Origin: a virus
Virus record (IMG/VR): IMGVR_UViG_3300020172_001601
Span: 64,198-128,197 of that record
Direction: 5' to 3' (one strand)
DNA: 64,000 nt
Numbering within the stretch: the stretch's first letter is position 1; the number at the start of each line of letters is the position of its first letter. Below the pieces are notes generated by a model that had not been told where the DNA came from, searched no databases, and worked only from the letters and a program-made list of their open reading frames with translations. Positions 12,108 to 64,000 of this stretch are shown here, piece after piece. Position numbers and translations under genes: made by a program.

Positions 12108-12180
12108 GCCGCTTTGAGCAGAGTGGGATTGCGCCTGTCTTGTAAACAGGAATGAGTGAGTTCGATTCTCACAGGCGGCT
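12108..12180 (+). tRNA. tRNA-Thr (TGT)
   Basis: Acceptor GCCGCTT/AGGCGGC; anticodon arm CCTGT-CTTGTAA-ACAGG. Confidence 0.8.
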
Positions 12181-12957
12181 CTGAAACATTTAACCTTTGG
12201 AGAAATACTATGGTGCGTCTTTGGCTCGAAACTGTGCGGATTTAGACCAACAGGTAGGTTACACCTGGGGCATTACTTCTCGGTGATTCAACCGGGACAA
12301 GCTGGGTGTACCGTACTGGTGGCAAACTATCATGCACCGGAGGTAAAGAATCTGGAAGTATCCGTGAACGCCTTACGGCAATACGGTGTCCAGACCATAG
12401 TGATTCAGAAGGACGTGTTTGACGCTGAGTTGTTCTTCCGACTATTGACGCTCGCTAAAATGGGCGACTTGAGCCGGATGACACAATTCAAGTCAACAGA
12501 AGAGGACGATAGGACTGGCCAATTGTTGACCTACCCTGTTCTCATGGCGCATGATGTTGCGGGTTACTCCGAAGTCATTGTGGGCCTGGATCAGAAGCAG
12601 CATTTGGAATATGCCAGAAAGCTGTTGAGAAAATACAACAGTGTATATGGCACGACATATCCAATCCCGATAGCGAATATCGTGGTGGGACGTGTCAAAG
12701 ATTTGCGTGACCCGACGAAGAAAATGTCGAAGTCATCACCACAAGGATGTTTATTCCTTGATGATAAGGTTGATGATATTCAACAAAAGATTCGGAAAGC
12801 GACCGCAGATGAAGAGGGCCTGAATAACTTGAAGTTTTTGTATGGGGAGTTTGTAAGAGAAACGCCTCCAACAAGTAATCAAGAACTAAAAGAAAAGCTG
12901 GCCGATGGTTTGGTGAAATGCTTTGCAAGCTGTAGTGGCACAGCATCCGGCTCTTAA
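12160..12957 (+). CDS. trpS: tryptophanyl-tRNA synthetase-like (short; no canonical start codon before the HIGH region)
   Basis: FRPTGRLHLGHY (HIGH region) at 12241-12276 lies upstream of first ATG/GTG; LTYPVLMAHDV and KMSKS present; frame opens at 12160 after TGA; 5' end abuts tRNA-Thr, 3' end overlaps tRNA-Lys. Confidence 0.6.
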   Translation, partial: VRFSQAALKHLTFGEILWCVFGSKLCGFRPTGRLHLGHYFSVIQPGQAGCTVLVANYHAPEVKNLEVSVNALRQYGVQTIVIQKDVFDAELFFRLLTLAKMGDLSRMTQFKSTEEDDRTGQLLTYPVLMAHDVAGYSEVIVGLDQKQHLEYARKLLRKYNSVYGTTYPIPIANIVVGRVKDLRDPTKKMSKSSPQGCLFLDDKVDDIQQKIRKATADEEGLNNLKFLYGEFVRETPPTSNQELKEKLADGLVKCFASCSGTASGS

Positions 12958-12992
12958 CCGGAAGGTTCAGGGTTCAAGTCCCTGGCGAAGCA
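12919..12992 (+). tRNA. tRNA-Lys (CTT); overlaps 3' end of TrpRS-like ORF
   Basis: Acceptor TGCTTTG/CGAAGCA; anticodon arm TCCGG-CTCTTAA-CCGGA. Confidence 0.7.
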
Positions 12993-12997
12993 CTCTT

Positions 12998-13079
12998 GCA
13001 GGTATGGCAGAACGGTTATGCACCTGACTCTTAATCAGGGATCGCAAGATCAACGTAGGTTCGACTCCTACTGCCTGCA
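12998..13079 (+). tRNA. tRNA with anticodon CTT by position but type-II-like scaffold (3-bp D-stem, 15-nt variable arm)
   Basis: Acceptor GCAGGTA/TGCCTGC; anticodon arm CCTGA-CTCTTAA-TCAGG; variable hairpin GATC-GCAA-GATC. Confidence 0.5.
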
Positions 13080-13087
13080 CTATTTAC

Positions 13088-13159
13088 GGCGTGTTCGACT
13101 TCTGGTGAGGTCATCTGCCTTTCAAGCAGATTAGATGGGATCGAAACCCATACACGTCA
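13088..13159 (+). tRNA. tRNA-Glu (TTC) second copy
   Basis: Acceptor GGCGTGT/ACACGTC; anticodon arm TCTGC-CTTTCAA-GCAGA; T-loop ATCGAAA. Confidence 0.7.
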
Positions 13160-13396
13160 CTTGTTGGTGGAAGAGTTCATATACAGTTGCCCAATACTAT
13201 TTGCCTTCTAAGCAAATATAGGGCTACCAGGGCCATATGAAGGTCAACTGAAAAAACTGGAATATCGGCCACCCGAAACCAACAAAACAAAAACGGTTAG
13301 AGGGTTTGTACTCGACGCCGTGGATTGCCAATCTTGGGTGGGCGGCATTCCGAAGGCTGGTCTTTGACAATTTGGTAGTTAAATTAAGGCCAAGAA

Positions 13397-13531
13397 GTGC
13401 CTGTGGTGTAAGCTGGTCGGCAGCGTCGTGGAAACACGAAACACTACATTGCACGTTAATCACATTTTCCGGCAAGACCGGCTCTGTGATTAGCGTATAA
13501 TGCCAATAGAGGTCGATTCCTCTCAGGCACA
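13397..13531 (+). tRNA. tRNA-like termini (GTGCCTG...CAGGCAC) flanking ~80-nt insert
   Basis: Complementary acceptor halves, GTGT D-like start, AGAGG..CCTCT T-like arm. Confidence 0.2.
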
Positions 13532-13710
13532 CTTCCCGGTCCAGAAATGGATCGGATTTTGGACTTGTCGTTCGTCTAAAATACGCTTCGGCGTATCTCA
13601 GGACGCCTGCACCGCCAATGCCGTTCGGCGGTTGATGATGTGATTGGTTGGGTTGGAATACTTCTCAAGCCAGGAAGCGCAAGCTGAACTTGCACGACAA
13701 GTCTCTTTAT

Positions 13711-13784
13711 GGTGATCGTAGTGTAGCGGCTCTGCACGTCTCCCTGTGAAGGAGAAAGTGGCGGTTCGACCCCGCTCGATCACC
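13711..13784 (+). tRNA. tRNA-His (GTG) with genome-encoded G-1 and C73
   Basis: G-1 then GTGATCG/CGATCAC; anticodon arm TCTCC-CTGTGAA-GGAGA. Confidence 0.8.
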
Positions 13785-13890
13785 CTTGATATTTTTCAAA
13801 TTGGGTCACTCTTTTAAGTCGGCATTGATCGACTACGAGATTTGGATATACTCATCTCGTCCCAAACTTCATTCAGGAAAGAGAGAAATT

Positions 13891-14697
13891 ATGGACCCAA
13901 AATATACCGTTGGCCAAAAGGTGCTTTTCGCCAATCAAGAAGCCATCATTCGTAAGCTCGAAGAGAGCGACGGAAAATTCAAGTATTACTGCGAAGTGGG
14001 CGGCGTCCCACTGACCATGTGGATTCCTGAAGATTCCCTTGATGTTGGAAATCCATCCGGCCCGCCATCAGTGTTCTTCAATCGAAGAATGCCACACTTG
14101 TTGATTGTGGATAACTTCTACAAAGACCCGGATGATGTGCGAGCCTTCGCCCTGGAGCAAGAGTTCAAGCCGAACTTGAGAAACTACAAGGGCGAAAGAA
14201 CTGATGAGCGATTCCTGTGGCCATTCCTCAAAGAAGAATTTGAGCGACTATTGGGCCGTCCGATTGTTGACTGGCTGAATCAGCCTTGCAACGGATGTTT
14301 CCAGATTACTGGTTTCAATGATCCGTTGGTGTGGCACTCCGACTTGCAGAGTTACGCCGCTGCTGTATATTTGACGCCAGATGCCCCGGTAAGTGCTGGG
14401 ACTAGCTTCTGGAAAGATACAAATCACGGAAGCCGTCGTCCACCAAATCACCCGCTTGAGTTCGACCGATTTGCTTCAGATGAAGCACGAGCTTTGGCGG
14501 CGAATGAGATTTACAGCGAATACAATATCCTTCACCCGGATAATTGGGAACTGGTCGATAAAGTTGGAGCCGTATATAACCGGCTTGCAATTTGGGATGC
14601 TCAAATGATCCACTCGGCAAGTTCCTACGAAGGCATGGTAAGTGGCGAGGCTGATAAGGCCCGACTTGTCCAATTGTTCTTCTTTACCGTAAGGTAA
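13891..14697 (+). CDS. hypothetical protein
   Basis: ATG 13891 after GAGAGAAATT; 268 aa. Confidence 0.5.
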   Translation: MDPKYTVGQKVLFANQEAIIRKLEESDGKFKYYCEVGGVPLTMWIPEDSLDVGNPSGPPSVFFNRRMPHLLIVDNFYKDPDDVRAFALEQEFKPNLRNYKGERTDERFLWPFLKEEFERLLGRPIVDWLNQPCNGCFQITGFNDPLVWHSDLQSYAAAVYLTPDAPVSAGTSFWKDTNHGSRRPPNHPLEFDRFASDEARALAANEIYSEYNILHPDNWELVDKVGAVYNRLAIWDAQMIHSASSYEGMVSGEADKARLVQLFFFTVR

Positions 14698-14702
14698 ACA
14701 AA

Positions 14703-14984
14703 ATGGCTTTCCGGTTGAGCAAAAAAGTCTCTCTCGAAGAGGGCGACAGGATACGAGTTTCAGGTGGTCCATACTTCCTCGCTCAATCTGGAAAAAAGAT
14801 CAGCATGGGTGAGCATGGGATTGGAACATTTGCTGGGGCAGAAGAAAATGGCGAAGCGATATACGTCAAGTTTGATCGCATGTCTGCTCCAAGATTTGTC
14901 TATATCGGGCCTGAGCGTTTGTCGGCATCAACTGGCACAACGCTCAGGCCCCATAAGATTGTCAAGCTGCGAAAGAAGGTGTGA
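14703..14984 (+). CDS. hypothetical protein
   Basis: 93-aa ORF. Confidence 0.4.
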   Translation: MAFRLSKKVSLEEGDRIRVSGGPYFLAQSGKKISMGEHGIGTFAGAEENGEAIYVKFDRMSAPRFVYIGPERLSASTGTTLRPHKIVKLRKKV

Positions 14985-15316
14985 CCATGTGGTATATTCT
15001 TGATGAAAATAATGATCCAGTTCCAGCCGACACATTGGTTGCAGCCCAATTCCTGGAAGATGGCAAGCGACGAACTGTTGCTTACGACGACATGCCTGAT
15101 GGCAGTTTGTTGTCCACGGTCTTCTTGTGTTTAGATCACGGCATGGGCCGGTCAGACGGTCCTGTGTTGTTTGAGTCGATGTGGTTTGGTGGTCCGCACG
15201 ATGGCCATCAGCGTCGGTACAAAACTTGGGACGAAGCCAAAGAAGGTCATGCCGATATGCTGGAGGCATATATGGAATATCAAAGATATAATGCGGAACA
15301 ATTGGCGAAGATGTAG
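14981..15316 (+). CDS. hypothetical protein
   Basis: 111-aa ORF overlapping previous stop. Confidence 0.4.
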   Translation: MTMWYILDENNDPVPADTLVAAQFLEDGKRRTVAYDDMPDGSLLSTVFLCLDHGMGRSDGPVLFESMWFGGPHDGHQRRYKTWDEAKEGHADMLEAYMEYQRYNAEQLAKM

Positions 15317-15320
15317 TTAT

Positions 15321-15392
15321 GCGACTATGGTGTAGGGGTTGTCACGCTTGCTTGCCATGCAAGAGGACAGGGTTCGAGTCCCTGTAGTCGCT
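15321..15392 (+). tRNA. tRNA-Gly (GCC)
   Basis: Acceptor GCGACTA/TAGTCGC; anticodon arm CTTGC-TTGCCAT-GCAAG. Confidence 0.8.
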
Positions 15393-15403
15393 CTGGTTTT
15401 TAT

Positions 15404-15475
15404 GCGGGTGTAGCTCAGTGGTAGAGCGTCACGTTGCCAACGTGGATGTCGTGGGTTCAAGTCCCATCACCCGCT
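15404..15475 (+). tRNA. tRNA-Gly (GCC) second copy
   Basis: Acceptor GCGGGTG/CACCCGC; anticodon loop TTGCCAA. Confidence 0.8.
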
Positions 15476-15479
15476 CTTT

Positions 15480-15550
15480 GCAGATATGATGTAGTGGTAG
15501 CCTTCGACTTTCCCAAAGTCGCTGTGTGAGTTCGATTCTCACTATCTGCT
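15480..15550 (+). tRNA. tRNA-Gly (CCC)
   Basis: Acceptor GCAGATA/TATCTGC; anticodon arm CGACT-TTCCCAA-AGTCG. Confidence 0.75.
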
Positions 15551-15561
15551 CTGTTCGATAT

Positions 15562-15701
15562 GCGTCTTTAGTGTAACTGTTAGAGCCGACCGACCTGAAA
15601 GGCCACCGGGCAACCGAGTTCTTCAGGCACGACAAGCGATAACGGCTGAAGCACGTCGCCTCTGGAGGGCAAGAGACTAGGTGCGAATCCTAGAGGACGC
15701 T
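15562..15701 (+). tRNA. tRNA-like termini (GCGTCTT...AGGACGC) with ~65-nt internal insert (140 nt)
   Basis: D-arm GTGT..GAGC; T-arm CTAGG-TGCGAAT-CCTAG. Confidence 0.3.
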
Positions 15702-15717
15702 CTTATAATGAAAGTAT

Positions 15718-15789
15718 GGCCCATTCGTCTAGCGGCTAGGACGTAACCCTCTCAAGGTTAAAACAGGAGTTCGATTCTCCTATGGGTCA
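15718..15789 (+). tRNA. tRNA-Glu (CTC)
   Basis: Acceptor GGCCCAT/ATGGGTC; anticodon arm TAACC-CTCTCAA-GGTTA. Confidence 0.8.
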
Positions 15790-15801
15790 CTGTTAATGAT
15801 T

Positions 15802-15926
15802 GCCGGGTTAGCTCAATGGTAGAGCGCCAAAAACTACTCTCAGCAATATTTGGGCTTCGGCCATGCTCGTTGGGAATACATTCCACTCGGAGGAGGAGGT
15901 CGTTGGTCCGATTCCAACACCCGGCA
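15802..15926 (+). ncRNA. tRNA-like RNA with ~50-nt structured insert at the anticodon-arm position; paralog of 41936-42058
   Basis: Perfect acceptor GCCGGGT/ACCCGGC, canonical D-arm, T-arm GTTGG-TCCGATT-CCAAC; insert has ATATTTGGGCTTCGGCCATGC (UUCG hairpin) and ATGCTCGTTGGGAATACATT hairpin. Confidence 0.5.
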
Positions 15927-15928
15927 CT

Positions 15929-16825
15929 ATGATTTGCGTTTACTTAGTAAATGAAGAACCGGCTTATATTGGGATGTTGTCCCTCAGCCTTAAAATGCTG
16001 CGACAGCATAACCCTAATGTGCCAGTTATTGTTTACTATGTCCAAGATGGCAAAAGGGATTCACGAAAAATCCCGCTCACTGAAATAACGAGAGCCTTGA
16101 ATAAGTTGCCAAACGACTATGCGTCGTTCAGTAATCTCTGCGAAGAACTCAATGTCGAGATTAGAGTTCGCAAGCCAAAACAAGAAGAAGCATATTACTC
16201 TCTGCATCGTTTGCTGTTGCAGGAGATCGAAGAAGAGACAGTGCTTCTGTTAGATGGCGACACCTTTATCTTCGGCAATATTGAGGAATTTCCCAAGATA
16301 TATGCTGGATACGATTTTGTCGCCACACCGAATTCTTGGGGCATGGTTCATCCGGTTCCTGGTTTAGACCCCAGCTTCAAGTCGTTCAACTCCGGCGTGG
16401 TGTTATGTCAGAACGGCATATTCAAGCGTTGGATGAATACAATAGGCGATTACTGTCAGAGATTATATGACGGTCGCCATCCACAGTCAGAATGGTTGTG
16501 GAGTGTAAGTTTAGAGTGTGCTGGCCGAGAAGAGTTGGCGGCGAGTTTGTTTGTTTTAGACAACGGTTTGAAGTACAGATACTTCGAGGATCAGCATGTG
16601 CAAATGGGGAGTTACGATGGCAACACCCGCATATTGCACACGCTAAGTCCTAGTTGGCATTCGTTGTATAACGAATGCTTCAAACCACAACGGCGAATGC
16701 TTTTTAAGCCACGCTTAAAAAATGATGCAGATGCCAGTCGTGAAGCAGATGATGATCTTGATTATCCACCAGAGGCCGATGGCAATACCGCCAACGCCCA
16801 GGCCGAACAACCAAGTTTTGAATGA
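15929..16825 (+). CDS. putative glycosyltransferase (GT8-like nucleotide-sugar transferase)
   Basis: LLDGDTFIF DxD-like motif; track start 15863 trimmed because it lay inside the tRNA-like RNA. Confidence 0.4.
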   Translation: MICVYLVNEEPAYIGMLSLSLKMLRQHNPNVPVIVYYVQDGKRDSRKIPLTEITRALNKLPNDYASFSNLCEELNVEIRVRKPKQEEAYYSLHRLLLQEIEEETVLLLDGDTFIFGNIEEFPKIYAGYDFVATPNSWGMVHPVPGLDPSFKSFNSGVVLCQNGIFKRWMNTIGDYCQRLYDGRHPQSEWLWSVSLECAGREELAASLFVLDNGLKYRYFEDQHVQMGSYDGNTRILHTLSPSWHSLYNECFKPQRRMLFKPRLKNDADASREADDDLDYPPEADGNTANAQAEQPSFE

Positions 16826-16909
16826 TTTAAGTTTAGAAATGAACTTGTCCTTGTCCATGTGTACCTCCTTGATACGATAAGGTATATATGCAACAATGAT
16901 GATGATTTT

Positions 16910-16985
16910 CAGGGTGTAGCTCAGTTTGGTAGAGCGCCTGGTTCGGGACCAGGAGGTTTCGGAGGTTCAAGTCCTCTCACCCTGA
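16910..16985 (+). tRNA. tRNA-Pro (CGG)
   Basis: Acceptor CAGGGTG/CACCCTG; anticodon arm CCTGG-TTCGGGA-CCAGG. Confidence 0.8.
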
Positions 16986-16998
16986 CTTGTAGAGACAA

Positions 16999-17018
16999 AT
17001 GCTAGTTGGGTTTACATT
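16999..17018 (+). repeat. copy of motif ATGCTAGTTGGGTTTACATT in 3' trailer of tRNA-Pro(CGG)
   Basis: Homologous to 15863-15882, 17182-17202, 42000-42018; region 16990-17092 bounded by inverted repeat AGAGACAA/TTGTCTCT. Confidence 0.55.
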
Positions 17019-17094
17019 GGATGCTAAGGCTCGGACCTAAAAGCTACCGCAAGGTGGCTGCAAAACAACTCAGCGCAATTTGTTGTCTCTATAT

Positions 17095-17169
17095 CAGGGT
17101 GTAGCTCAGTTTGGCTAGAGCGCCCGGTCTGGAACCGGGAGGCCGTAGGTTCAAGTCCTACTACCCTGA
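17095..17169 (+). tRNA. tRNA-Pro (TGG by position; C at 33)
   Basis: Acceptor CAGGGTG/TACCCTG; anticodon arm CCCGG-TCTGGAA-CCGGG. Confidence 0.7.
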
Positions 17170-17181
17170 CTTTTGTGACAA

Positions 17182-17202
17182 ATGCTCGTTTGGGATTACA
17201 TT
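17182..17202 (+). repeat. copy of motif ATGCTCGTTTGGGATTACATT in 3' trailer of tRNA-Pro(TGG)
   Basis: Region 17172-17300 bounded by inverted repeat TTTGTGACAA/TTGTCACAAA and contains a T-arm-like TTGG-TTCGACT-CCAA. Confidence 0.55.
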
Positions 17203-17327
17203 TGGTTCGACTCCAAGGGGCGGCTCTTTCAAAAACATGCCGCCCAACCAGCACAGGGCAACCTGGGGCTGGGGTCCGATCTCAGCACAATTTGTTGTCA
17301 CAAAATACACTTAAAAGAAAGATTGCT

Positions 17328-17699
17328 ATGCCAGAAAAATACAATTCGGTACTTTGGAAGGACTTTCCAACACTCGTTAAAAACGAACTGGAAAGAGCTA
17401 GGAATAAACACCCCGGCACTCAACATAACCTGCATGAAGGTTATGCGGTCATCCTTGAAGAAGTGGACGAATTTTGGGACATAGTAAAGAGCCAAAGGCC
17501 CGATCCGGTTCACGCCATTGAGGAATTGGTTCAAATCGCCGCTATGTGCCAAAGGACAGCGGAAGACTTGCTGTTGCGGAAAGAAAAGCGATGCAGTCGT
17601 TGCAATGTCCTATTGTCAGAAAACATTGCTAAGTATTGTGGCGATAGTGAAGAGAAAGAATCTCACAGATGGATGTCTGTTCCAGACGAGAAGACTTAA
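17328..17699 (+). CDS. MazG-like nucleotide pyrophosphohydrolase domain protein (putative)
   Basis: HEGYAVILEEVDEFWD resembles the MazG EExxE metal site; start trimmed to ATG 17328. Confidence 0.4.
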   Translation: MPEKYNSVLWKDFPTLVKNELERARNKHPGTQHNLHEGYAVILEEVDEFWDIVKSQRPDPVHAIEELVQIAAMCQRTAEDLLLRKEKRCSRCNVLLSENIAKYCGDSEEKESHRWMSVPDEKT

Positions 17700-17702
17700 T
17701 TC

Positions 17703-17776
17703 AGGCTGTAGCTCAGTTTGGCTAGAGCGCTTGCATGGGGTGCAAGAGGTCGGAGGTTCAAGTCCTCTCAGCCTGA
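17703..17776 (+). tRNA. tRNA-Pro (GGG)
   Basis: Acceptor CAGGCTG/CAGCCTG; anticodon arm CTTGC-ATGGGGT-GCAAG. Confidence 0.8.
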
Positions 17777-17963
17777 CTGAATTTCGTATTTTTTTTCTTA
17801 TTACGAATGCGACCATCGAGGCAACAAGAAAGGTGATGTAAGTGCAATGCTTACACTTAGCAAAAATTCTATATTAGCTGAAATGCAAAAATGCGATGTA
17901 AGATGTGTTCGTTGTCATCGTCTTAAAACAGCGAAAGAATTTGGCTATTACAAAATGATACTT

Positions 17964-18034
17964 GCTTCCTTGGTATAACGGTATTACGCCGCCCTCGTAA
18001 AGCGGAAATGAGTGTTCAATTCACTCAGGAAGCT
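17964..18034 (+). tRNA. tRNA-Thr (CGT)
   Basis: Acceptor GCTTCCT/AGGAAGC; anticodon loop CTCGTAA. Confidence 0.75.
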
Positions 18035-18043
18035 CTGATATAT

Positions 18044-18116
18044 GACAGCGAAGCCAAACGGCTCGGCGACAGTTTCATAAGCTGTTCATTAGTGGGTTCG
18101 ACTCCCACCGCTGTCA
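18044..18116 (+). tRNA. tRNA-Met/Ile2 (CAT) third copy
   Basis: Acceptor GACAGCG/CGCTGTC; anticodon arm ACAGT-TTCATAA-GCTGT. Confidence 0.65.
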
Positions 18117-18207
18117 CTTGGTTCAAATGCAGGCAGGATTACATTTATCGGGCGATGAGCCGAAAGGGTCGCTGGTTCGATTCCAGCCCCAGCAGCTTAG
18201 ATAGATT

Positions 18208-18789
18208 ATGTTGAAACCCACACGTTTAATTTGGCAAGACTTGGTTAGTCGGATTGTTCAATTGGGACATGATCGAGATCAAGTTGTGCATGGCTCAATG
18301 CCTGAAAGTACACTGGCTCTTTTGTCAAATGTATTGACAGGGAATGGTTTGCAAATTGGTGGATTTGTTGGCGTGTCTCATTGTTATTTGGCGTGGGCCT
18401 TGCGAGACAAAGGCTCGATATGCACTGTGGACCCCAATTTGAAACATCGTGGTATTGAAAATCCTTTCTTGGTTGCGACCAGGATGGTTTCTGAGTTTGG
18501 ATTATTGAAAAACTCAATGCTGATATGTGGATATGGCCTAAAACAAATGCGGTTGTTTGCGATCTTGGGAGTGAAATTTGATTTCATCATTTTGGATGGC
18601 AATCATGATTTTCAGATGGTGAATGATGAGATCGAGTGCGCCACACCGATATTGAAAGACGGTGGATATTTGGTCTTGGATGACATCGACCATTGGGACG
18701 GTCCAAAAAAGGTTTACAACAGCGGTCCAGCAGGGTATAATCGGATCGAACTGGATTCGAGGGCTGGACTTTTGCAGAAAATGGGGTAA
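18208..18789 (+). CDS. class I SAM-dependent methyltransferase (Methyltransf_24/TylF-like)
   Basis: ILDGNHDFQMV..LKDGGYLVLDDI matches the DGDHSYE..PGG..DD pattern. Confidence 0.5.
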   Translation: MLKPTRLIWQDLVSRIVQLGHDRDQVVHGSMPESTLALLSNVLTGNGLQIGGFVGVSHCYLAWALRDKGSICTVDPNLKHRGIENPFLVATRMVSEFGLLKNSMLICGYGLKQMRLFAILGVKFDFIILDGNHDFQMVNDEIECATPILKDGGYLVLDDIDHWDGPKKVYNSGPAGYNRIELDSRAGLLQKMG

Positions 18790-18865
18790 TTCGTCAGAGC
18801 ATCCTTTGAGAAGTGAAAAGAGAGTCTGCTGTACTTTTGCAGCACTTTTTTCAAAGGAGATTCAG

Positions 18866-19222: not shown

Positions 19223-19284
19223 AATGTGATCGTGAATCCTAAATATTGTGGACTGCTTCGGTGGTCCATATTGTTTAGGAAAAT

Positions 19285-19732: not shown

Positions 19733-19733
19733 T

Positions 19734-29917: not shown

Positions 29918-29919
29918 AC

Positions 29920-61313: not shown

Positions 61314-61718
61314 ATGGCAGTAAAGCAAGTTATCGTTTGGCGACACGATTTGGGTTGTCGAGTCGGGAAGAAGATGTCGCAAGCGGGTCATGCTGCTTTG
61401 GCCGACTTGTCGAACACGATTCGTGACAATGTTGATGCCGAAGGTAATGTATCGTTCAAGCTGTCGCCTGCACAGTTTGAGTGGTATTTGACGAACTTCC
61501 GCAAGATCGTTCTCCGTGTTGACAGTGAGGCCGACCTGTTGCTTCTGTACCATCGGGCGCAGGAAGTGGGGTTGCCGACTGAACTCATCATCGACAGCGG
61601 TTTGACGGAATGGGATCAGCCCACAAAGACTTGCATCGCTATCGGGCCAGCAGAAGATGCCGAGATTGACGAGATCACTGGCGAACGTGGCCCTTTGGGA
61701 AGATTGAAGTTGATGTGA
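61314..61718 (+). CDS. pth2: peptidyl-tRNA hydrolase, PTH2 family
   Basis: KQVIVWRHDLGCRVGKKMSQAGHAAL matches PTH2 K.V.VVR.DL.MGKGK.AAQ..HAA; AGGAGA RBS, ATG 61314. Confidence 0.55.
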   Translation: MAVKQVIVWRHDLGCRVGKKMSQAGHAALADLSNTIRDNVDAEGNVSFKLSPAQFEWYLTNFRKIVLRVDSEADLLLLYHRAQEVGLPTELIIDSGLTEWDQPTKTCIAIGPAEDAEIDEITGERGPLGRLKLM

Positions 61719-61720: not shown

Positions 61721-61750
61721 TTTACTGAATGGTGATTTTTGTGGTATATA
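61721..61750 (+). promoter_or_regulatory. sigma70-type promoter TTTACT-N18-TGGTATATA
   Basis: Upstream of ORF 61761. Confidence 0.45.
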
Positions 61751-61760
61751 ATACAATACC

Positions 61761-62270
61761 ATGATTGCAACCATCATAATTGCCGCAGCGACCTTTTTCG
61801 TCCTGATAGCCTTAACGTATTGCTGCCTACGTTTATGGTCGGCACGGAATGCTTTACAACATAAACTTTCCGTGGTAGAATCGACAGTAGCGGAGCAGGC
61901 AAGATGCCTTAGTGCATTTGGAGAGCGACTGTCTAGTGTTGAGGCTGCTCAAGAAGAAGAATTGACGCAAGATCAGGCCGAATACAGAGATCAGCTACAG
62001 GCACAATACGCTGCCCTGTTCAAGCAGATCGAAGACAACATGAAGAACGATCTGAAGACGGCGAGAACCGAAACTTCAGACTTGGTGAAGAAAAGTCGTG
62101 CTGAATTCGACAAGAAGTTGAAGGACGAGTTCGAGAAAGCCTGCGAACAAATCAAGTTCAACGAAATCGAATACAAGCGAACAATCACCAAAAAGCGGAA
62201 AGAATTCAGTCGCAAAAATGCAAAGAACGCCAAACCTCAGAGGATATGGCGATACATAGATGAAGAATAA
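61761..62270 (+). CDS. membrane-anchored coiled-coil protein
   Basis: N-terminal TM helix then charged helical region. Confidence 0.4.
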   Translation: MIATIIIAAATFFVLIALTYCCLRLWSARNALQHKLSVVESTVAEQARCLSAFGERLSSVEAAQEEELTQDQAEYRDQLQAQYAALFKQIEDNMKNDLKTARTETSDLVKKSRAEFDKKLKDEFEKACEQIKFNEIEYKRTITKKRKEFSRKNAKNAKPQRIWRYIDEE

Positions 62271-62384
62271 CCCGTATAAAAGCGGGGTCGAGTGAACCCC
62301 GTTCATGCGGGCATTGTCCCTTTGAACGCAGAGGAAAAAATGGGTCCGTAGATACACGAAAGGAACCATCAACCGGAGGTCAGT

Positions 62385-62999
62385 ATGTCATTAGCACAGA
62401 GAAAAGTCTTAGTTTTGAACAAGTCGTGGACTGCCATTGGCGTCGTCACGTTGGAAAAGGCACTCAAGAAAGTCGCCGGAACCTACAAAGACGGTACACC
62501 GAAGGCACGCATCATCGACGCACTTCATGACTTTGCTATGCTGACCTGGGATGATTGGGCAAAACTCCGTCCAGCGGAAAACGAGCCAGCAATGCGTTCT
62601 GTGAACGCAGTGTTCCGTATTCCTGAAGTTATCCAGTACACTCGATACGACAAGCTGCCTTCACAGAAGGTCCACTACAACCGTAGGACTATCTACCGGC
62701 GTGATGGTAACATCTGCCAGTATTGTGGAAAGCAGAAGCCGGGCAGTGAGTTGTCATTGGACCACGTTATCCCACGTTGCCAGGGTGGTTTGACCACCTG
62801 GGAAAACATTGTCGTGGCTTGCACTGACTGCAACGCACGGAAGGCTGGTCGTACTCCGAAGGAAGCCAATATGAAGTTGCTCTCTGTGCCTAAGAAGCCA
62901 AAGCACAACTTCTTCCCTGGTGATGTTCGGGTGAAGTCTTGGGAGCAATTCCTTGGCGAAGCGTACTGGCTCACAGAGCTAGAACATGACGGTGACTAG
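62385..62999 (+). CDS. HNH endonuclease
   Basis: CQYCGK..LSLDHVIPRCQGGLTTWENIVVACTDCNARK. Confidence 0.75.
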   Translation: MSLAQRKVLVLNKSWTAIGVVTLEKALKKVAGTYKDGTPKARIIDALHDFAMLTWDDWAKLRPAENEPAMRSVNAVFRIPEVIQYTRYDKLPSQKVHYNRRTIYRRDGNICQYCGKQKPGSELSLDHVIPRCQGGLTTWENIVVACTDCNARKAGRTPKEANMKLLSVPKKPKHNFFPGDVRVKSWEQFLGEAYWLTELEHDGD

Positions 63000-63022
63000 C
63001 TGTCTACGGATTGCTAAACAAT

Positions 63023-63062
63023 AGCCTCTGGCGTGTGGCGACATGCGCCAGAGGCTTTTTTA
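63023..63062 (+). terminator. rho-independent terminator after HNH gene
   Basis: AGCCTCTGGCG..CGCCAGAGGCT then TTTTTTATT. Confidence 0.8.
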
Positions 63063-63483
63063 TTCTTCATGGTGCGATATGGAAAAGTTATCACCCGCAG
63101 TTCAAAAACTCATTGCTATCCGCACCAAGTTGGAAGACGAGCGGCATCAATTTGCCCTGAAGCATGGCTTTGCATACAAGCGGGCGCAGGACTTCAAAAG
63201 CTGCGTAGTCATCCGTTGGAAAACATCTCGGAAGAAATACGAAATCAATTATCCTCGTCTCGATGAGTATGGCAAAATAACCCATGAACTCTCGGAAAAG
63301 TACGACCTGTACGTTGAGGAATATCCACTGCTTAGTGCGGACCTTCGATTGTTGAAGGCAGGCATTTACGTTTTCTCATCATGGGATTATCAGGCATGGG
63401 CCATCCCAAATGAAAACAAGGAAATTCAGGACTATGTTCTGAGCAAGTTACCTAAATGGGTCAAAGTGAGTGTGAAGAAATGA
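63043..63483 (+). CDS. hypothetical protein
   Basis: 146-aa ORF; its start overlaps the terminator, so true start may be downstream. Confidence 0.35.
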   Translation: MRQRLFYSSWCDMEKLSPAVQKLIAIRTKLEDERHQFALKHGFAYKRAQDFKSCVVIRWKTSRKKYEINYPRLDEYGKITHELSEKYDLYVEEYPLLSADLRLLKAGIYVFSSWDYQAWAIPNENKEIQDYVLSKLPKWVKVSVKK

Positions 63484-64000
63484 TTCGCCCTATTCCGCTA
63501 TCTCATGGCGTTGGGTTTTTCTCAATGCAGCAATTGCCTCAATTTGCAGGCAAGTACCGTGAGGAAAATGTCGGTCGCTATTGGAACTACTATGTCACTC
63601 CAGAGTGCCAGGAATGGCCCGAAGCTGTGACGTATAAGGGTCCGTATGTAATCGACGGGTTCTCCCCAAACCTCAACAAGAGTCTGCACGTCGGGCATCT
63701 ACGTCAATTGGCCTTGGCCAAGTCTTTGGAGAGCATTATGAACTTTGCTCAACCTAAGCCTAATGCCAAGTTCGTTTCCCTATTGGGAGCTTCACAAGGC
63801 GTTTTTCAATACGCTACTGAGCAACTGAATGGATGGTTCGATTTCTTGAACTTCCATCCAGAGTTGCACTATGACGTATTGATGCCACGAGATCAGGAGA
63901 TCGTTCCTCGTTACAAAACCAAGGTGCCGGTCAAAGACCCTATTTCGACTGACATTAACGGCAAGCCTTTCGAGCATGAAGAAGAATGTGAAGTATGGGA
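63480..64000 (+). CDS. argS: arginyl-tRNA synthetase-like, 3'-partial (runs off window)
   Basis: Open frame from ATG 63480 to window end, not in ORF track; GFSPNLNKSLHVGHLRQLALAKSL matches ArgRS HIGH region (E. coli NVAKEMHVGHLRS). Confidence 0.55.
   Translation, partial: MIRPIPLSHGVGFFSMQQLPQFAGKYREENVGRYWNYYVTPECQEWPEAVTYKGPYVIDGFSPNLNKSLHVGHLRQLALAKSLESIMNFAQPKPNAKFVSLLGASQGVFQYATEQLNGWFDFLNFHPELHYDVLMPRDQEIVPRYKTKVPVKDPISTDINGKPFEHEEECEVW

What the first reader, a model, noticed from the sequence alone, without database searches (positions are those of the whole stretch)
12160..64000. Exceptionally dense translation-takeover repertoire in one 52-kb stretch
Between 12.1 kb and the window end are five aaRS genes: TrpRS-like, the GluRS core, IleRS, MetRS, and the ArgRS-like partial. 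With them are RRF, a PTH2-type peptidyl-tRNA hydrolase, a bL12 C-terminal-domain protein, ClpS, and more than 50 tRNAs covering nearly all class-I amino acids (complete Arg set ACG/CCG/TCG/TCT/CCT; Gly GCC/CCC/TCC; Pro TGG/CGG/GGG). PTH2 is the archaeal/eukaryotic-type hydrolase and is unusual in a bacterial virus. A standalone bL12 CTD (the factor-recruiting domain for EF-G, EF-Tu and IF2) suggests direct manipulation of the ribosomal stalk. The ArgRS-like ORF at 63480-64000 was absent from the supplied ORF track because it runs off the window.
Basis: partly seen in the sequence, partly recalled or inferred. Interest (0 to 1): 0.7.

Follow-up and report, generated by a model that had tools for sequence, protein, structure and literature searches.

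The report
Huge-phage translation island, frameshift-gated TrpRS
A 390-kb bacteriophage carries about 50 tRNA genes, five slimmed-down tRNA-charging enzymes and ribosome recycling or rescue factors, which is a known trait of huge phages; the new point is that its tryptophan enzyme can only be made if the ribosome slips one base at a tryptophan codon, which looks like a built-in sensor of charged tryptophan tRNA.

Summary
The window is bases ~114-178 kb of a 390-kb metagenomic phage contig.
- IleRS, MetRS, RRF, PTH2 and ClpS are all present.
- There is a GluRS catalytic core without an anticodon-binding domain.
- There is a short TrpRS-like protein.
- There is a short ArgRS-like protein that runs off the window end.

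Several claims do not hold:
- Only 27-28 tRNAs lie in 12.16-64 kb. The ~52 tRNAs are spread over 6.1-37 kb.
- Arg ACG and CCG tRNAs are not found.
- There are no Leu, Ser, Tyr, Cys or Phe tRNAs.
- The "bL12 CTD" is only a two-helix motif inside an all-helical protein.
- PTH2 is already annotated in dozens of phages.

Such repertoires are described for huge phages (Al-Shayeb 2020), so the island itself is a new member of a known kind.

The unexpected result concerns the TrpRS-like gene. Its HIGH motif has no in-frame start. The only SD+ATG (12210) is in another frame. The sequence GGTG-CGT-CTT-TGG-C reproduces the prfB +1 frameshift cassette, with the Trp codon UGG in place of UGA. This arrangement is conserved in 28 distinct homologues from independent metagenomes. 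More distant homologues start normally. The likely meaning is feedback control of a phage mini-TrpRS by the supply of Trp-tRNA(Trp).

The parts
8603..37036 (+). tRNA gene array. ARAGORN finds 49 genes, all on the + strand, with 29 anticodons for 15 amino acids. Rfam adds 18044-18116 (CAT) here, and 6128-6218 and 6719-6850 upstream. Only 27-28 of these genes lie inside the finding's span.
   Evidence: Forty-one genes are supported by both ARAGORN and Rfam.
12199..12245 (+). Candidate programmed +1 frameshift cassette at the 5' end of the TrpRS-like gene. Elements: SD GGAG 12199-12202; ATG 12210-12212; internal SD-like GGTG 12212-12215; spacer CGT 12216-12218; slippery CTT 12219-12221; Trp codon TGG 12222-12224; C 12225; leader-frame stop TAG 12243-12245.
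   Evidence: sequence and frames. (conserved in 28 distinct homologous loci). (anatomy of the prfB motif).
12210..12957 (+). Mini TrpRS-like gene. The inferred coding sequence is join(12210..12221, 12223..12957), giving 248 aa (MVRL|GSKLCGFRPTGRLHLGHYF...). HIGH (HLGH) and KMSKS are present and most of the C-terminal anticodon-binding domain is absent. The last 13 codons overlap tRNA-Lys 12920-12993.
   Evidence: profiles. (large family of 200-285 aa). (PDB alignment). (AlphaFold pLDDT 92.5; Foldseek top 50 hits all TrpRS, TMq 0.74-0.84, TMt about 0.6).
12998..13080 (+). 83-nt tRNA with anticodon CUU (Lys) and a long variable arm (GAUC-GCAA-GAUC). It lies 4 nt after an ordinary tRNA-Lys(CUU). 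A similar pair with anticodon UUU is at 9243-9316 and 9321-9406.
   Evidence: The homologue in L020 has a fully compensated arm, GCGA-GAAA-UCGC.
28851..29189 (+). ClpS-like Clp protease adaptor, 112 aa.
   Evidence: PF02617, 51.1 bits against a cut-off of 23. (best NCBIfam ClpS score 43.9 bits, below the equivalog cut-offs). (phrog_27368).
33622..34092 (+). Short ribosome recycling factor, 156 aa.
   Evidence: PF01765, 88.8 bits, profile positions 2-161 of 164. (TIGR00496, 75.6 bits, below the 149 cut-off). (few phage homologues). (no PHROG match).
36944..37036 (+). 93-nt tRNA with anticodon UAU (Ile) and a long variable region.
   Evidence: It is conserved in L031 with the CAGU/ACUG stem kept.
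37332..38240 (+). GluRS catalytic core, 302 aa. It has HIGT and PMSKR motifs and no anticodon-binding domain.
   Evidence: PF00749, 209 bits. (GluRS TIGR00464 273.5 bits, below 290; GluQRS TIGR03838 only 152 bits, below 277). (more than 120 homologues of 277-365 aa, all catalytic domain only). (motifs).
38890..39258 (+). 122-aa all-helical protein carrying a motif like bL12 helices 4-5 (KIEAVKYVREQLQCGLKEAKDYVEQ).
   Evidence: sub-threshold matches to bL12. (family of about 25 full-length members). (pLDDT 81, six helices, no strands). (no significant fold match). (no match in the phage collection).
40135..41880 (+). Ro60/Rsr-like RNA-binding protein (TROVE plus vWA). The gene caller's start is 40173.
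   Evidence: vWA_Ro60 59 bits; TROVE 21.6 bits, below 23.. (phrog_850). (41% identity to the Myxococcus phage Mx1 homologue).
41937..42059 (+). tRNA-like RNA 57 nt downstream of the Ro60 gene. It has an acceptor stem, a D-arm (GGUAGCUCAAUGGUAGAGC) and a T-arm (GUGUGUUCGAUUCACAC), with a ~50-nt insert in place of the anticodon arm. It is a candidate Y-RNA-like partner of Ro60.
   Evidence: ARAGORN with introns allowed. (Rfam YrlA only 17 bits, E=4.2). (folding z-score -3.4). (the same element in a 97%-identical relative scores 51.5 bits as tRNA)..
44475..47036 (+). IleRS, 853 aa. It has HIGH, KMAKS, an editing domain and an anticodon-binding domain.
   Evidence: The best phage homologues are about 35% identical.
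56950..58599 (+). MetRS, 549 aa, with HIGT and KISKS motifs.
61314..61718 (+). PTH2-type peptidyl-tRNA hydrolase, 134 aa as called on the source contig.
63456..64000 (+). 5' part of a short ArgRS-like gene with an HVGH motif. It continues to window-equivalent position 64766, for 436 aa in all.
   Evidence: weak within the window. (full gene: tRNA-synt_1d 37.9 bits, DALR_1 32.3 bits, TIGR00456 75 bits against a cut-off of 262; KMKSRTG motif; no N-terminal Arg_tRNA_synt_N domain).

Best explanation
The span is the tRNA and translation island of an uncultured phage of about 390 kb.

What the island supplies:
- About 50 phage tRNAs, nearly all lacking an encoded CCA end.
- Two complete class-I synthetases (IleRS, MetRS) and three miniaturised ones (TrpRS-like, GluRS core, ArgRS-like). 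Each of the five has cognate tRNA genes in the array.
- Ribosome recycling and clean-up factors (RRF, PTH2, and just past the window an RF1-type GGQ-domain protein).
- ClpS, and an Ro60 protein with an adjacent tRNA-like RNA.

Inferred purpose: keep phage mRNAs translated when host tRNAs, synthetases or ribosomes become limiting or are attacked.

The TrpRS-like gene appears to be expressed by a prfB-type +1 frameshift. The proposed steps are:
1. Ribosomes start at ATG 12210.
2. They read M-V-R-L and meet the Trp codon UGG in the A site, with CUU in the P site and an SD-like GGUG 3 nt upstream.
3. If Trp-tRNA(Trp) arrives quickly, they stay in frame and stop at a TAG after an 11-residue peptide.
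4. If it is scarce, peptidyl-tRNA(Leu) slips from CUU to UUU, GGC is read next, and the 248-aa enzyme is made.

This would be negative feedback on the enzyme's own product.

Shown here: the gene identities, the frame structure and the conservation of the cassette. Inferred: that the slip occurs, that it responds to Trp-tRNA, and that the short enzymes charge tRNA.
For: ISLAND
- Source contig of 390,142 bp, with a near-identical viral contig in IMG/VR.
- Profile hits for every component.
- Cognate tRNAs for all five synthetases: Trp CCA; Glu UUC and CUC; Ile GAU and UAU; three with CAU; Arg UCG, CCU and UCU.
- The short TrpRS and GluRS forms are large conserved families found on contigs up to about 670 kb.
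- The same kinds of genes are reported in huge phages (PMC7162821).

FRAMESHIFT
- GFRPTGRLHLGHYF, which contains the HIGH motif, is in frame upstream of the first canonical start. Adding it raises the Pfam match to profile positions 9-241 of 292.
- The only SD+ATG is in the -1 frame relative to the enzyme frame, and that frame stops after 11 codons.
- 71 distinct 5' regions of homologues were recovered. 28 of them, which is every homologue at or above about 55% identity except one deletion variant, carry ATG, then GGTG or GGAGG, then 3 nt, then CTT TGG (C in 27 cases, T in 1).
- In those 28, the leader frame stops 2-13 codons after CTT.
- In 27 of the 28, the enzyme frame has no canonical start codon upstream of the site. 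In 26 it also has a stop 4-21 codons upstream; in some it is one codon before the site.
- Differences between the window and L007 downstream of CTTT are all synonymous in the enzyme frame.
- 42 more distant homologues have an ordinary in-frame ATG, giving M-x-x-L-(C/V)-G-I-R-P-T-G. This is the same pattern of presence and absence seen for prfB.
- The prfB motif is an SD-like element, 3 nt, CTTT, a stop codon, then C (PMC12421855).
- Ty1 uses CUU_AGG_C, with a slow A-site codon and GGC as the +1 codon (PMC5009743).
- The model of the product is a confident TrpRS fold whose first strand starts at KLCGF. The residues encoded upstream of the slip site are therefore not needed structurally.
- An independent assembly has the identical sequence.
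Against: - No expression, proteomic or reporter data exist. The frameshift and its dependence on Trp-tRNA are inferred from sequence alone.
- In 17 of the 28 cassettes the GGTG overlaps the start codon (ATGGTG). Its role as an internal SD-like stimulator cannot be separated there from start-codon context.
- In the enzyme frame the cassette reads W-C-V-F-G, which is also conserved. One window/L007 difference upstream of CTTT is synonymous in that frame. A contribution of enzyme-frame coding upstream of the site is therefore not fully excluded for loci without an adjacent stop.
- The three short synthetases score below NCBIfam equivalog cut-offs and lack tRNA-binding modules, so their tRNA-charging activity is unproven.
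- The host is unknown, so codon-usage or defence-evasion roles of the tRNAs could not be tested.
- The window holds no tRNAs for Leu, the most used amino acid, or for Ser, Tyr, Cys or Phe.
Confidence: 0.7

Rival explanations
1. The TrpRS-like gene is a pseudogene, or the frame break is a sequencing or assembly error. No functional enzyme is made.
For: The gene caller could only call a 224-aa product that lacks HIGH. The protein is about 80 residues shorter than bacterial TrpRS and scores below the TIGR00233 cut-off. Its 3' end runs into a tRNA gene.
Against: - The same frame arrangement occurs in 28 distinct sequences from independent metagenomes, at 55-98% protein identity.
- Substitutions downstream of the site are synonymous in the enzyme frame.
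- Two assemblies are identical.
- The family has dozens of invariant residues, including HIGH and KMSKS.
- The fold prediction is confident.
Confidence: 0.03
2. The enzyme frame is reached without frameshifting. Possible routes are initiation at a non-canonical codon (for example ATA 12205), or termination-reinitiation after the short leader ORF.
For: Short upstream ORFs that overlap a gene's 5' end commonly act through translational coupling. In the window itself the enzyme frame is open for 21 codons upstream of the site and contains an ATA codon.
Against: - In L007, L009, L010, L026 and others a stop codon lies 4-5 codons upstream of the slip site in the enzyme frame, within one or two codons of the cassette. 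No near-cognate start lies between that stop and the conserved residues.
- The conserved residues G-S-K-L-C-G-F are encoded upstream of, or across, the leader stop. Reinitiation after the stop would lose them.
- No ATG, GTG or TTG follows before HIGH in most loci.
- This rival does not explain the invariant CTT TGG with an SD-like element exactly 3 nt upstream.
Confidence: 0.08
3. The +1 frameshift is real but constitutive. It sets a low fixed expression level, or gives a fixed ratio of leader peptide to enzyme, and does not sense Trp-tRNA.
For: Many viral frameshifts set fixed ratios. CUU_NNN_C sites with an SD-like stimulator can shift at appreciable rates on their own, and Ty1 CUU_AGG_C gives 40% (PMC5009743). 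No data on Trp dependence exist.
Against: The A-site codon is UGG in 28 of 28 cassettes, while the spacer codon and leader length vary freely. UGG is the codon decoded by the tRNA that TrpRS charges, a 1-in-61 coincidence if any sense codon would do. The logic matches prfB, where the A-site signal is read by the gene's own product.
Confidence: 0.2
4. The three truncated synthetase-like proteins are not tRNA-charging enzymes for translation. They would act as tRNA-modifying enzymes (as GluQRS does), amino-acid activators for other chemistry, or decoys. On this reading the island is less a translation supplement than a tRNA-biology and anti-defence toolkit.
For: - The GluRS core lacks the anticodon-binding domain, as GluQRS does.
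- The TrpRS-like protein lacks most of its C-terminal domain, and the ArgRS-like protein lacks its N-terminal tRNA-binding domain.
- All three score below equivalog cut-offs.
- The array contains unusual long-arm tRNAs.
- Phage tRNAs are now linked to evasion of tRNA-targeting defences (PMC10264068 and PMC11555353, listed).
Against: - The GluRS core scores much better against GluRS than against GluQRS (273 against 152 bits).
- The catalytic motifs are intact in all three.
- Cognate tRNA genes accompany each.
- A UGG-gated frameshift makes most sense if the product raises Trp-tRNA(Trp).
Confidence: 0.25

Closest known systems
Translation-gene repertoires of huge phages (Al-Shayeb et al. 2020, PMC7162821). 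From memory, jumbo phages such as Xanthomonas phage XacN1 also carry dozens of tRNAs.
   Same: Genome above 200 kb, tens of tRNAs, several aaRS 'distinct from but related to' cellular ones, RRF, release-factor-like proteins and L7/L12-like proteins. The same proposed role: sustaining or redirecting translation. XacN1 and two LR-series huge phages carry PTH2 homologues at 43-46% identity.
   Different: No close relative exists in the phage collection. Each protein hits a different phage at no more than 47% identity. Three of the five aaRS here are conserved miniaturised forms. The published descriptions searched here do not mention a frameshift in any aaRS gene.
Autoregulatory +1 programmed frameshift of prfB (RF2)
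   Same: An SD-like element, a 3-nt spacer, the CTTT slippery run and a C after the A-site codon. The site lies near the 5' end of the gene, the zero frame ends quickly, and the A-site signal is decoded by the gene's own product. The cassette is present in one clade and absent, with a normal start, in relatives.
   Different: - The A-site codon is the sense codon UGG, not UGA. The competing event is decoding by Trp-tRNA, not termination by RF2.
- The gene is a TrpRS-like enzyme of phages.
- The leader is only 4-13 codons long, against about 25 in E. coli prfB.
- The SD-like element is GGUG or GGAGG rather than AGGGGG, and it often overlaps the start codon.
Hungry-codon +1 frameshifting: yeast Ty1 CUU_AGG_C, and Gallant's starvation-induced shifts
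   Same: P-site CUU, a slow A-site sense codon and GGC as the incoming +1-frame codon (PMC5009743).
   Different: Ty1 relies on a constitutively rare tRNA and produces a fusion protein. Here the slow step would vary with charging of tRNA(Trp), and the product is the charging enzyme. The 2016 review states that no natural case is known in which hungry-codon shifting yields a functional trans-frame protein.
GluQRS (YadB), the anticodon-domain-less GluRS paralogue
   Same: About 300 aa, GluRS catalytic domain only, and tRNA-Asp genes nearby.
   Different: It scores 273 bits against GluRS but only 152 bits against GluQRS, far below the GluQRS cut-off of 277. It belongs to its own large family on phage-sized contigs.
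Ribosomal protein bL12 C-terminal domain. Virus-encoded bL12 is cited in PMC7162821 as Mizuno et al. 2019.
   Same: The helix-4/5 segment aligns with conservation of K65, K70, R73, L80, K81, E82 and K84 (E. coli numbering from memory; alignment). Family members are pre-annotated with PF00542.
   Different: The match is below the Pfam cut-off in this protein. There are no beta strands, no bL12 N-terminal domain, no significant structural match, and some family members delete the following segment.
Bacterial Ro60 (Rsr) with Y RNA (YrlA)
   Same: A TROVE/vWA protein followed on the same strand by a structured RNA with tRNA-like D- and T-arms.
   Different: The Rfam YrlA score is only 17 bits against a gathering score of 69. 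The element is laid out like a tRNA with an insert replacing the anticodon arm. No covariation data are available, because the only relative recovered is 97% identical.

Membership tests
prfB-type +1 programmed frameshift cassette | Internal Shine-Dalgarno-like element 3 nt upstream of the slippery codon | tested here: met
   GGTG (25 cases) or GGAGG (3 cases) lies exactly 3 nt before CTT in 28 of 28 cassettes. In the window it is at 12212-12215. The motif definition comes from PMC12421855.
prfB-type +1 programmed frameshift cassette | CTT-T slippery run with the product encoded in the +1 frame | tested here: met
   CTTT is in register in 28 of 28 cassettes. The conserved TrpRS sequence starts at TTT-GGC in the +1 frame.
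prfB-type +1 programmed frameshift cassette | In-frame stop codon (UGA) in the A site | tested here: not met
   The A-site codon is TGG (Trp) in 28 of 28 cassettes. The zero-frame stop follows 1-12 codons later. This is therefore a variant of the prfB cassette, not a member.
prfB-type +1 programmed frameshift cassette | C immediately after the A-site codon | tested here: met
   C in 27 of 28 cassettes and T in 1.
prfB-type +1 programmed frameshift cassette | Frameshifting demonstrated, and responsive to the gene product | not testable with these tools
   This needs reporter assays or proteomics.
Tryptophanyl-tRNA synthetase (class Ic) | HIGH and KMSKS motifs in a Rossmann-fold catalytic domain | tested here: met
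   HLGH and KMSKS are present. PF00579 scores 105 bits. The Foldseek top 50 hits are all TrpRS, with TMq 0.74-0.84.
Tryptophanyl-tRNA synthetase (class Ic) | Full-length equivalog score (TIGR00233) and the C-terminal anticodon-binding helical domain | tested here: not met
   108 bits against a cut-off of 176.75, covering profile positions 6-222 of 328. The PDB alignment ends near residue 240 of 328-348. TMt is about 0.6.
Tryptophanyl-tRNA synthetase (class Ic) | Charges tRNA(Trp) | not testable with these tools
   A tRNA-Trp(CCA) gene lies 1.8 kb upstream (10394-10465), and within 2-3 kb in 5 of 13 relatives.
Glutamyl-tRNA synthetase | Catalytic domain with HIGH- and KMSKS-type motifs | tested here: met
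   PF00749 scores 209 bits. HIGT and PMSKR are present.
Glutamyl-tRNA synthetase | Anticodon-binding domain and equivalog score | tested here: not met
   TIGR00464 scores 273.5 bits against a cut-off of 289.95, and the match ends at profile position 315 of 470. The downstream ORF is unrelated.
GluQRS (YadB) | Equivalog score for TIGR03838 or the NF0043xx models | tested here: not met
   152 bits against a cut-off of 276.7, and lower than the GluRS score.
Isoleucyl-tRNA synthetase | TIGR00392 equivalog score, HIGH and KMSKS motifs, editing and anticodon domains | tested here: met
   741 bits against a cut-off of 621.4. HIGH and KMAKS are present, and the Anticodon_1 and editing-domain hits are found.
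Methionyl-tRNA synthetase | TIGR00398 score and catalytic motifs | tested here: met
   386.4 bits against a cut-off of 336.35. HIGT and KISKS are present.
Arginyl-tRNA synthetase | Catalytic domain plus DALR anticodon-binding domain | tested here: met
   On the full 436-aa gene, tRNA-synt_1d scores 37.9 bits (cut-off 23.3) and DALR_1 scores 32.3 bits (cut-off 22.3). HVGH and KMKSRTG are present.
Arginyl-tRNA synthetase | Equivalog score and the N-terminal tRNA-binding domain | tested here: not met
   TIGR00456 scores 75.4 bits against a cut-off of 261.65. There is no Arg_tRNA_synt_N hit, and HIGH lies at residue 78.
Ribosome recycling factor | RRF domain over its full length | tested here: met
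   PF01765 scores 88.8 bits against a cut-off of 29.7, covering profile positions 2-161 of 164. The TIGR00496 equivalog score of 75.6 bits is below its 149.1 cut-off, so this is a divergent short form.
PTH2 peptidyl-tRNA hydrolase | PTH2 domain and the arch_pth2 equivalog | tested here: met
   PF01981 scores 88.3 bits. TIGR00283 scores 83.7 bits against a cut-off of 82.
ClpS | ClpS domain | tested here: met
   PF02617 scores 51.1 bits against a cut-off of 23. The NCBIfam equivalog models are all below cut-off.
Ribosomal protein bL12 C-terminal domain | Pfam PF00542 above its gathering score over the whole alpha/beta domain | tested here: not met
   23.4 bits against a cut-off of 25.9, covering only profile positions 10-36 of 67.
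Ribosomal protein bL12 C-terminal domain | Three-stranded alpha/beta fold | tested here: not met
   The AlphaFold model (pLDDT 81) has six helices and no strands. The best Foldseek PDB E-value is 1.8, and bL12 ranks 15th at E=7.8.
Ro60/Rsr with Y RNA | TROVE and vWA domains | tested here: inconclusive
   vWA_Ro60 scores 59 bits, above its cut-off. TROVE scores 21.6 bits, below 23. NF041674 scores 96 bits against a cut-off of 900, over the full length.
Ro60/Rsr with Y RNA | Adjacent Y RNA matching the family model | tested here: inconclusive
   YrlA scores 17 bits against a gathering score of 69. A tRNA-like element is present and stably folded.

The most novel reading that the evidence does not exclude
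The conserved cassette SD-like / 3 nt / CUU-UGG-C at the start of huge-phage mini-TrpRS genes is a natural amino-acid-sensing +1 frameshift. A ribosome waiting for Trp-tRNA(Trp) at UGG slips into the synthetase frame. The phage would then make its own TrpRS only when charged tRNA(Trp) runs short, for example late in infection or under host attack on tRNA charging.

This would be the first aminoacyl-tRNA synthetase shown to be controlled by hungry-codon frameshifting. It would also be a sense-codon counterpart of RF2 autoregulation.

A second, independent oddity may belong to the same adaptation: tRNAs with Lys, Asn, Ile, Trp or Thr anticodons that carry long, GNRA-capped variable arms. One possibility is that the arm is an extra handle for synthetases that have lost their anticodon-binding domains.
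Probability: 0.5. Interest if true: 0.85.

Novelty: new variant of a known kind. Interest (0 to 1): 0.72.

Why it matters
The island itself adds one more lineage to the known picture of huge phages that carry part of the translation apparatus. This lineage has no close relative in the phage databases searched.

The frameshift cassette matters more, for three reasons:
- If it works as inferred, the prfB logic (the gene product decodes the signal that gates its own synthesis) has been reused with a sense codon to regulate an aminoacyl-tRNA synthetase.
- A 2016 review of recoding stated that no natural example was known of hungry-codon frameshifting producing a functional protein (PMC5009743). 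This cassette would be one.
- It is a compact element of about 35 nt, directly testable in reporters, and potentially usable as a genetically encoded sensor of tRNA(Trp) charging.

There is also a practical annotation problem. Gene callers systematically mis-start these genes. They either drop the HIGH motif or add spurious N-terminal extensions read through upstream tRNA genes.

The conserved mini-TrpRS (about 245 aa) and GluRS cores (about 300 aa) are natural minimal synthetases. They are of interest for the question of how little protein is needed to charge a tRNA.

Tried and rejected
- **Close relatives.** Megablast of 20 kb against phages found only tRNA-sized matches. An IMG/VR scan with IleRS found nothing. 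tblastn with 2,904 aa of concatenated proteins found no record sharing more than one gene.
- **Exact look-up of PTH2** with the long TTG-start ORF failed because the start was wrong.
- **GluRS core as GluQRS:** rejected on scores.
- **TrpRS-like as a truncated pseudogene or assembly error:** rejected by family size, conservation and an identical independent assembly.
- **N-terminal half of TrpRS encoded elsewhere (split gene):** not needed once the upstream frame was read.
- **bL12 CTD fold:** rejected by structure prediction and fold search. There are no homologues in the phage collection.
- **Arg ACG and CCG tRNAs:** not found. The odd tRNA at 11639-11711 is not the homologue of the Arg(ACG) gene of a close relative.
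- **Genome-wide specificity of the cassette.** The pattern GGTGNNNCTTTGGCTCNAA has 87 hits in IMG/VR. Only 3 are at TrpRS genes, all in loci already known. The bare 15-base pattern is therefore not diagnostic, and no second gene family with the cassette was found this way.
- **Second cassette-like match in the window.** GGTG-ATG-CTT-TGG-G at 37856, inside the GluRS core, is in frame (QVMLWD) and was judged to be chance.
- **Transcriptional slippage:** unlikely, because the T run is only 3 nt.
- **YrlA model match:** too weak to call. The only relative with the RNA is 97% identical, so covariation could not be tested.
- **Sipley & Goldman 1993.** From memory, they tested an RF2 site with UGG under Trp-tRNA limitation. 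The paper could not be read, so it is not used as evidence.

Full report
**Source and context**

An exact-protein look-up places the window on ENA assembly ERZ25042327, contig NODE_1 (390,142 bp, ~10x coverage), at about 114-178 kb. A Logan assembly of run ERR4011032 is identical to the window over 12,481 bases. IMG/VR holds a 78.6-kb viral contig that is 97-98% identical at two genes.

Nearly all genes are on the + strand and G+C is 45-52%. Phage markers in or near the window are:
- a gp32-like ssDNA-binding protein
- an N-terminal fragment of a Gp23-type capsid protein
- HNH endonucleases
- many PHROG matches

No close relative exists in 50,697 phage records. Individual proteins hit different phages at no more than 47% identity.

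**Protein-coding claims**

Pfam and NCBIfam confirm the following genes.

| Gene | Coordinates | Key evidence |
|---|---|---|
| IleRS | 44475-47036 | TIGR00392 741 bits, above 621; HIGH, KMAKS, editing and anticodon domains |
| MetRS | 56950-58599 | TIGR00398 386 bits, above 336; HIGT, KISKS |
| RRF | 33622-34092 | PF01765 88.8 bits; short and below the TIGR00496 cut-off |
| PTH2 | 61314-61718 | Passes PF01981 and TIGR00283 |
| ClpS | 28851-29189 | PF02617 51 bits |

The 'GluRS core' (37332-38240, 302 aa) is a GluRS catalytic domain with HIGT and PMSKR motifs and no anticodon-binding domain. It resembles GluRS (273 bits) much more than GluQRS (152 bits). It belongs to a family of more than 120 proteins of 277-365 aa with the same single-domain architecture, found on contigs up to 669 kb.

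The ArgRS-like ORF starts at 63456 and is only a weak hit within the window. The full 436-aa gene from the source contig passes the Pfam cut-offs for the ArgRS catalytic domain and the DALR domain. It has HVGH and KMKSRTG motifs but lacks the N-terminal tRNA-binding domain and scores far below the equivalog cut-off.

The picture is two complete synthetases and three conserved miniaturised ones, not pseudogenes.

**tRNAs**

ARAGORN finds 49 tRNA genes between 8603 and 37036, all on the + strand. Rfam supports 41 of them and adds 18044-18116 (anticodon CAT), 6128-6218 and 6719-6850.

- There are 29 anticodons for 15 amino acids.
- Leu, Ser, Tyr, Cys and Phe are absent from the window, although Leu is the most used amino acid in the window's genes.
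- For Arg, only UCG, CCU and UCU are present.
- Every one of the five synthetases has cognate tRNA genes in the array.
- All tRNAs but one lack an encoded CCA. Position 74 is C in 48 of 49 genes and position 75 is T in 46 of 49.

**The TrpRS-like gene**

The listed ORF (12283-12957, GTG start) lacks the HIGH motif. The same frame, however, is open further upstream and reads ...LWCVFGSKLCGFRPTGRLHLGHYF. Including this stretch extends the Pfam match to profile positions 9-241 of 292. No ATG, GTG or TTG exists in that frame between the upstream stop and HIGH.

The only ribosome-binding site plus start codon (GGAG 12199-12202, ATG 12210) is in the frame one base behind. That frame reads ATG GTG CGT CTT TGG CTC GAA ACT GTG CGG ATT TAG.

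A homologue from a 586-kb contig of a different project, 72% identical, has the same layout. There the stop codon of the upstream gene sits one codon before the conserved region in the enzyme frame. The enzyme frame therefore cannot be initiated.

I recovered 71 distinct 5' regions from IMG/VR and metagenomes. Twenty-eight of them carry the same cassette. These are all homologues at or above about 55% identity, apart from one deletion variant. The cassette has these features:

| Feature | Result in the 28 cassettes |
|---|---|
| Start | SD + ATG, followed by a 4-13-codon leader |
| SD-like element | GGTG in 25, GGAGG in 3 |
| Spacer | 3 nt, free to vary (CGT, TGT, TAT, TTT, TTA, ATA, GTG) |
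| Slip site and A-site codon | CTT TGG |
| Next base | C in 27, T in 1 |
| Leader-frame stop | 2-13 codons after CTT; 13 sequences read CTT TGG CTC TAA/TAG |
| Enzyme frame upstream | No canonical start in 27 of 28; stop 4-21 codons upstream in 26 of 28 (no stop within the 90 nt examined in the other two) |

Differences between the window and the 72%-identical relative downstream of CTTT are all synonymous in the enzyme frame. Forty-two more distant homologues begin with an ordinary in-frame ATG (M-x-x-L-(C/V)-G-I-R-P-T-G).

Long 'N-terminal extensions' in database proteins of this family are not conserved. In some cases they are read-through of an upstream tRNA gene (for example ...GSIPT...).

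**Comparison with prfB**

The cassette matches the prfB frameshift signal element by element. That signal is an SD-like sequence, 3 nt, CTTT, an A-site codon and then C (PMC12421855). The one difference is that the stop codon UGA is replaced by UGG. One example, CGG AGG TAT CTT TGG CTC TAA (L034), is nearly the E. coli prfB sequence as I recall it (AGG GGG TAT CTT TGA CTA; from memory).

It also parallels yeast Ty1 CUU_AGG_C, where a slow A-site sense codon and the +1-frame codon GGC drive the shift (PMC5009743).

The inferred product is join(12210..12221, 12223..12957), 248 aa, starting MVRL|GSKLCGF. With a 30-sequence alignment AlphaFold gives pLDDT 92.5 and pTM 0.86, and the first beta strand starts at KLCGF. 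The top 50 Foldseek PDB hits are all TrpRS, with TM 0.74-0.84 normalised to the query and about 0.6 normalised to the target. Most of the C-terminal anticodon-binding domain is missing.

The family has more than 100 listed members of 200-285 aa (4,487 hits in all), on contigs up to 673 kb.

**Proposed mechanism for the TrpRS gene**

Shown: the frame structure, the conservation, the motif identity with prfB and the TrpRS fold.

Inferred:
1. Ribosomes start at ATG 12210.
2. With CUU in the P site they wait for Trp-tRNA(Trp) at UGG.
3. Fast decoding leads to an 11-residue peptide and termination.
4. Slow decoding lets peptidyl-tRNA(Leu) re-pair on UUU, so GGC is read and the enzyme is made.

UGG is invariant while the neighbouring positions drift. 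UGG is also the codon served by the enzyme's product. The most economical reading is therefore negative feedback, like that of RF2.

I found no report of this in three literature searches. The 2016 recoding review does not mention tRNA synthetases in the 300,000 of its 429,602 characters that are held. It says no natural example of functional hungry-codon frameshifting was known. That is absence of evidence within a limited library, not proof of novelty.

**The bL12 claim**

The 122-aa protein (38890-39258) matches bL12 only over helices 4-5, at 23.4 bits and below the cut-off. phmmer against PDB gives E=0.002 over 49 residues. The aligned segment keeps the basic and hydrophobic residues of those helices.

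The protein belongs to a family of about 25 full-length members, several on contigs above 170 kb. The AlphaFold model is six helices with no strands, there is no significant structural match, and some members delete the next segment.

It is best described as a bL12-helix-4/5-like motif in a different scaffold. Competition for translation GTPases is possible but untested.

**Other components**

- PTH2 homologues occur in 47 phage records, including mycobacteriophages Myrna and Phabba, XacN1 and two LR-series huge phages. The gene is rare in phages but documented.
- RRF is rarer. The convincing phage hit is the 469-kb Sinorhizobium phage Phosso; most other hits are contaminated records. There is no PHROG match.
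- An Ro60/Rsr-like protein (40135-41880) is followed 57 nt later by a stably folding tRNA-like RNA with an insert replacing the anticodon arm. The same element in a 97%-identical relative scores 51.5 bits as tRNA, but the YrlA model match is weak.
- Just past the window lie a 152-aa RF1-type GGQ-domain protein and an RlaP nucleotidyltransferase.

**How the island most likely works**

The phage supplies:
- tRNAs
- enzymes to charge five of them
- factors that recycle ribosomes (RRF)
- factors that clear peptidyl-tRNA (PTH2 and the GGQ protein)
- an RNA-surveillance pair (Ro60 and its RNA)

This would sustain translation of its own messages when the host supply fails or is attacked. That is the model proposed for huge phages generally. 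It also agrees with recent work linking phage tRNAs to escape from tRNA-targeting defences (papers listed). 'Takeover' as opposed to 'maintenance' cannot be decided from sequence.

**Verdict**

The island is a new member of a known kind.

The conserved UGG-gated, prfB-like frameshift in the mini-TrpRS gene is a new variant of a known mechanism and is the reason for the high interest score.

Confidence:

| Claim | Confidence |
|---|---|
| Identity of the island | About 0.9 |
| A +1 frameshift is required | About 0.8 |
| The frameshift senses Trp-tRNA | About 0.5 |

Noticed in passing
window 9321-9406, 9861-9951, 12998-13080, 36944-37036; L008 3803-3886; L020 2876-2958; L031 1774-1865; L021 586-668; L009 5135-5214; L036 1904-1986: tRNAs of 80-93 nt with long variable arms, but with anticodons for Lys (UUU, CUU), Asn (GUU), Ile (UAU), Trp (CCA) or Thr (UGU). 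In bacteria only Leu, Ser, Tyr and Sec tRNAs have such arms. The two Lys-anticodon ones each lie 4 nt after an ordinary tRNA-Lys with the same anticodon, and their arms are 4-bp stems capped by GNRA loops. The L020 homologue has a fully compensated stem (GAUC-GCAA-GAUC against GCGA-GAAA-UCGC). The function is unknown. Possible roles are nuclease evasion, a handle for the domain-poor phage synthetases, or mischarging.
   Followed up: partly
all tRNA genes, window 8603-37036: The base after the discriminator is C in 48 of 49 tRNA genes and the next base is T in 46 of 49. Only tRNA-Arg(UCU) at 36233-36309 encodes CCA. This is a strongly conserved 3' trailer (N73-C-U) and suggests a shared processing signal.
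   Followed up: partly
window 41937-42059 (also L100 1848-1970): A tRNA-like RNA lies immediately downstream of the Ro60/Rsr-like gene. Its acceptor stem, D-arm and T-arm are intact, and a ~50-nt insert replaces the anticodon arm. It may be a Y-RNA-like partner, but the Rfam YrlA score is only 17 bits.
   Followed up: partly
window 6128-6218 and 6719-6850: Two Rfam tRNA matches (49.5 and 31.9 bits) have inserts of 17 nt and 78 nt in the anticodon-arm region. ARAGORN misses them without intron mode.
   Followed up: no
window 11467-11541 and 11639-11711 (also L008 1819-1893, L020 1-74): tRNA-like genes that ARAGORN draws with 6-nt anticodon loops and 8-bp acceptor stems. The first is conserved in two relatives. 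Their decoding properties are unknown.
   Followed up: no
C-termini of ORFs 21100-21927 (gp32-like), 25577-25828 and 60765-61022; similar internal motif in 25192-25530: A recurrent C-terminal peptide: a Lys-rich run followed by (Y/W)R(S/D)(I/L)x(D/E)P(F/W)EP(S/A)(W/S). For example, the SSB-like protein ends in KQKYRSLTDPFEPAW. It may be a shared docking tail, like the C-terminal tip of bacterial SSB.
   Followed up: no
window 60765-61022: An 85-aa ORF matches only the first 49 positions of the Pfam Gp23 (T4 major capsid) model and then ends with the Lys-rich/DPWEPS tail. It is an isolated capsid-protein N-terminal fragment sitting among translation genes.
   Followed up: no
L002 13682-14140 and 14605-15531 (window-equivalent 66066-66524 and 66989-67915, beyond the window end): A 152-aa protein consisting of an RF1-type GGQ domain (112 bits to the C-terminal part of prfA, with only a weak ArfB match), and an RlaP RNA-repair nucleotidyltransferase. 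These add a further ribosome-rescue and a tRNA-repair function next to the island.
   Followed up: partly
window 12920-12957: The last 13 codons of the TrpRS-like ORF overlap tRNA-Lys(CUU). Many homologues instead end with a conserved ...DELxxxSQEMGLY tail that is missing here, so in this lineage a tRNA gene appears to have replaced the extreme C-terminus.
   Followed up: partly
window 20757-21089, 22410-23657, 31058-33004, 47921-48511, 52793-53233, 54492-55001: Other notable genes in the span: a standalone RNA polymerase alpha C-terminal domain, an M16 peptidase, a 648-aa SPFH/band-7 protein, an OGFr_N-domain protein, NADAR, and a circularly permuted YpsA (SLOG) protein.
   Followed up: no
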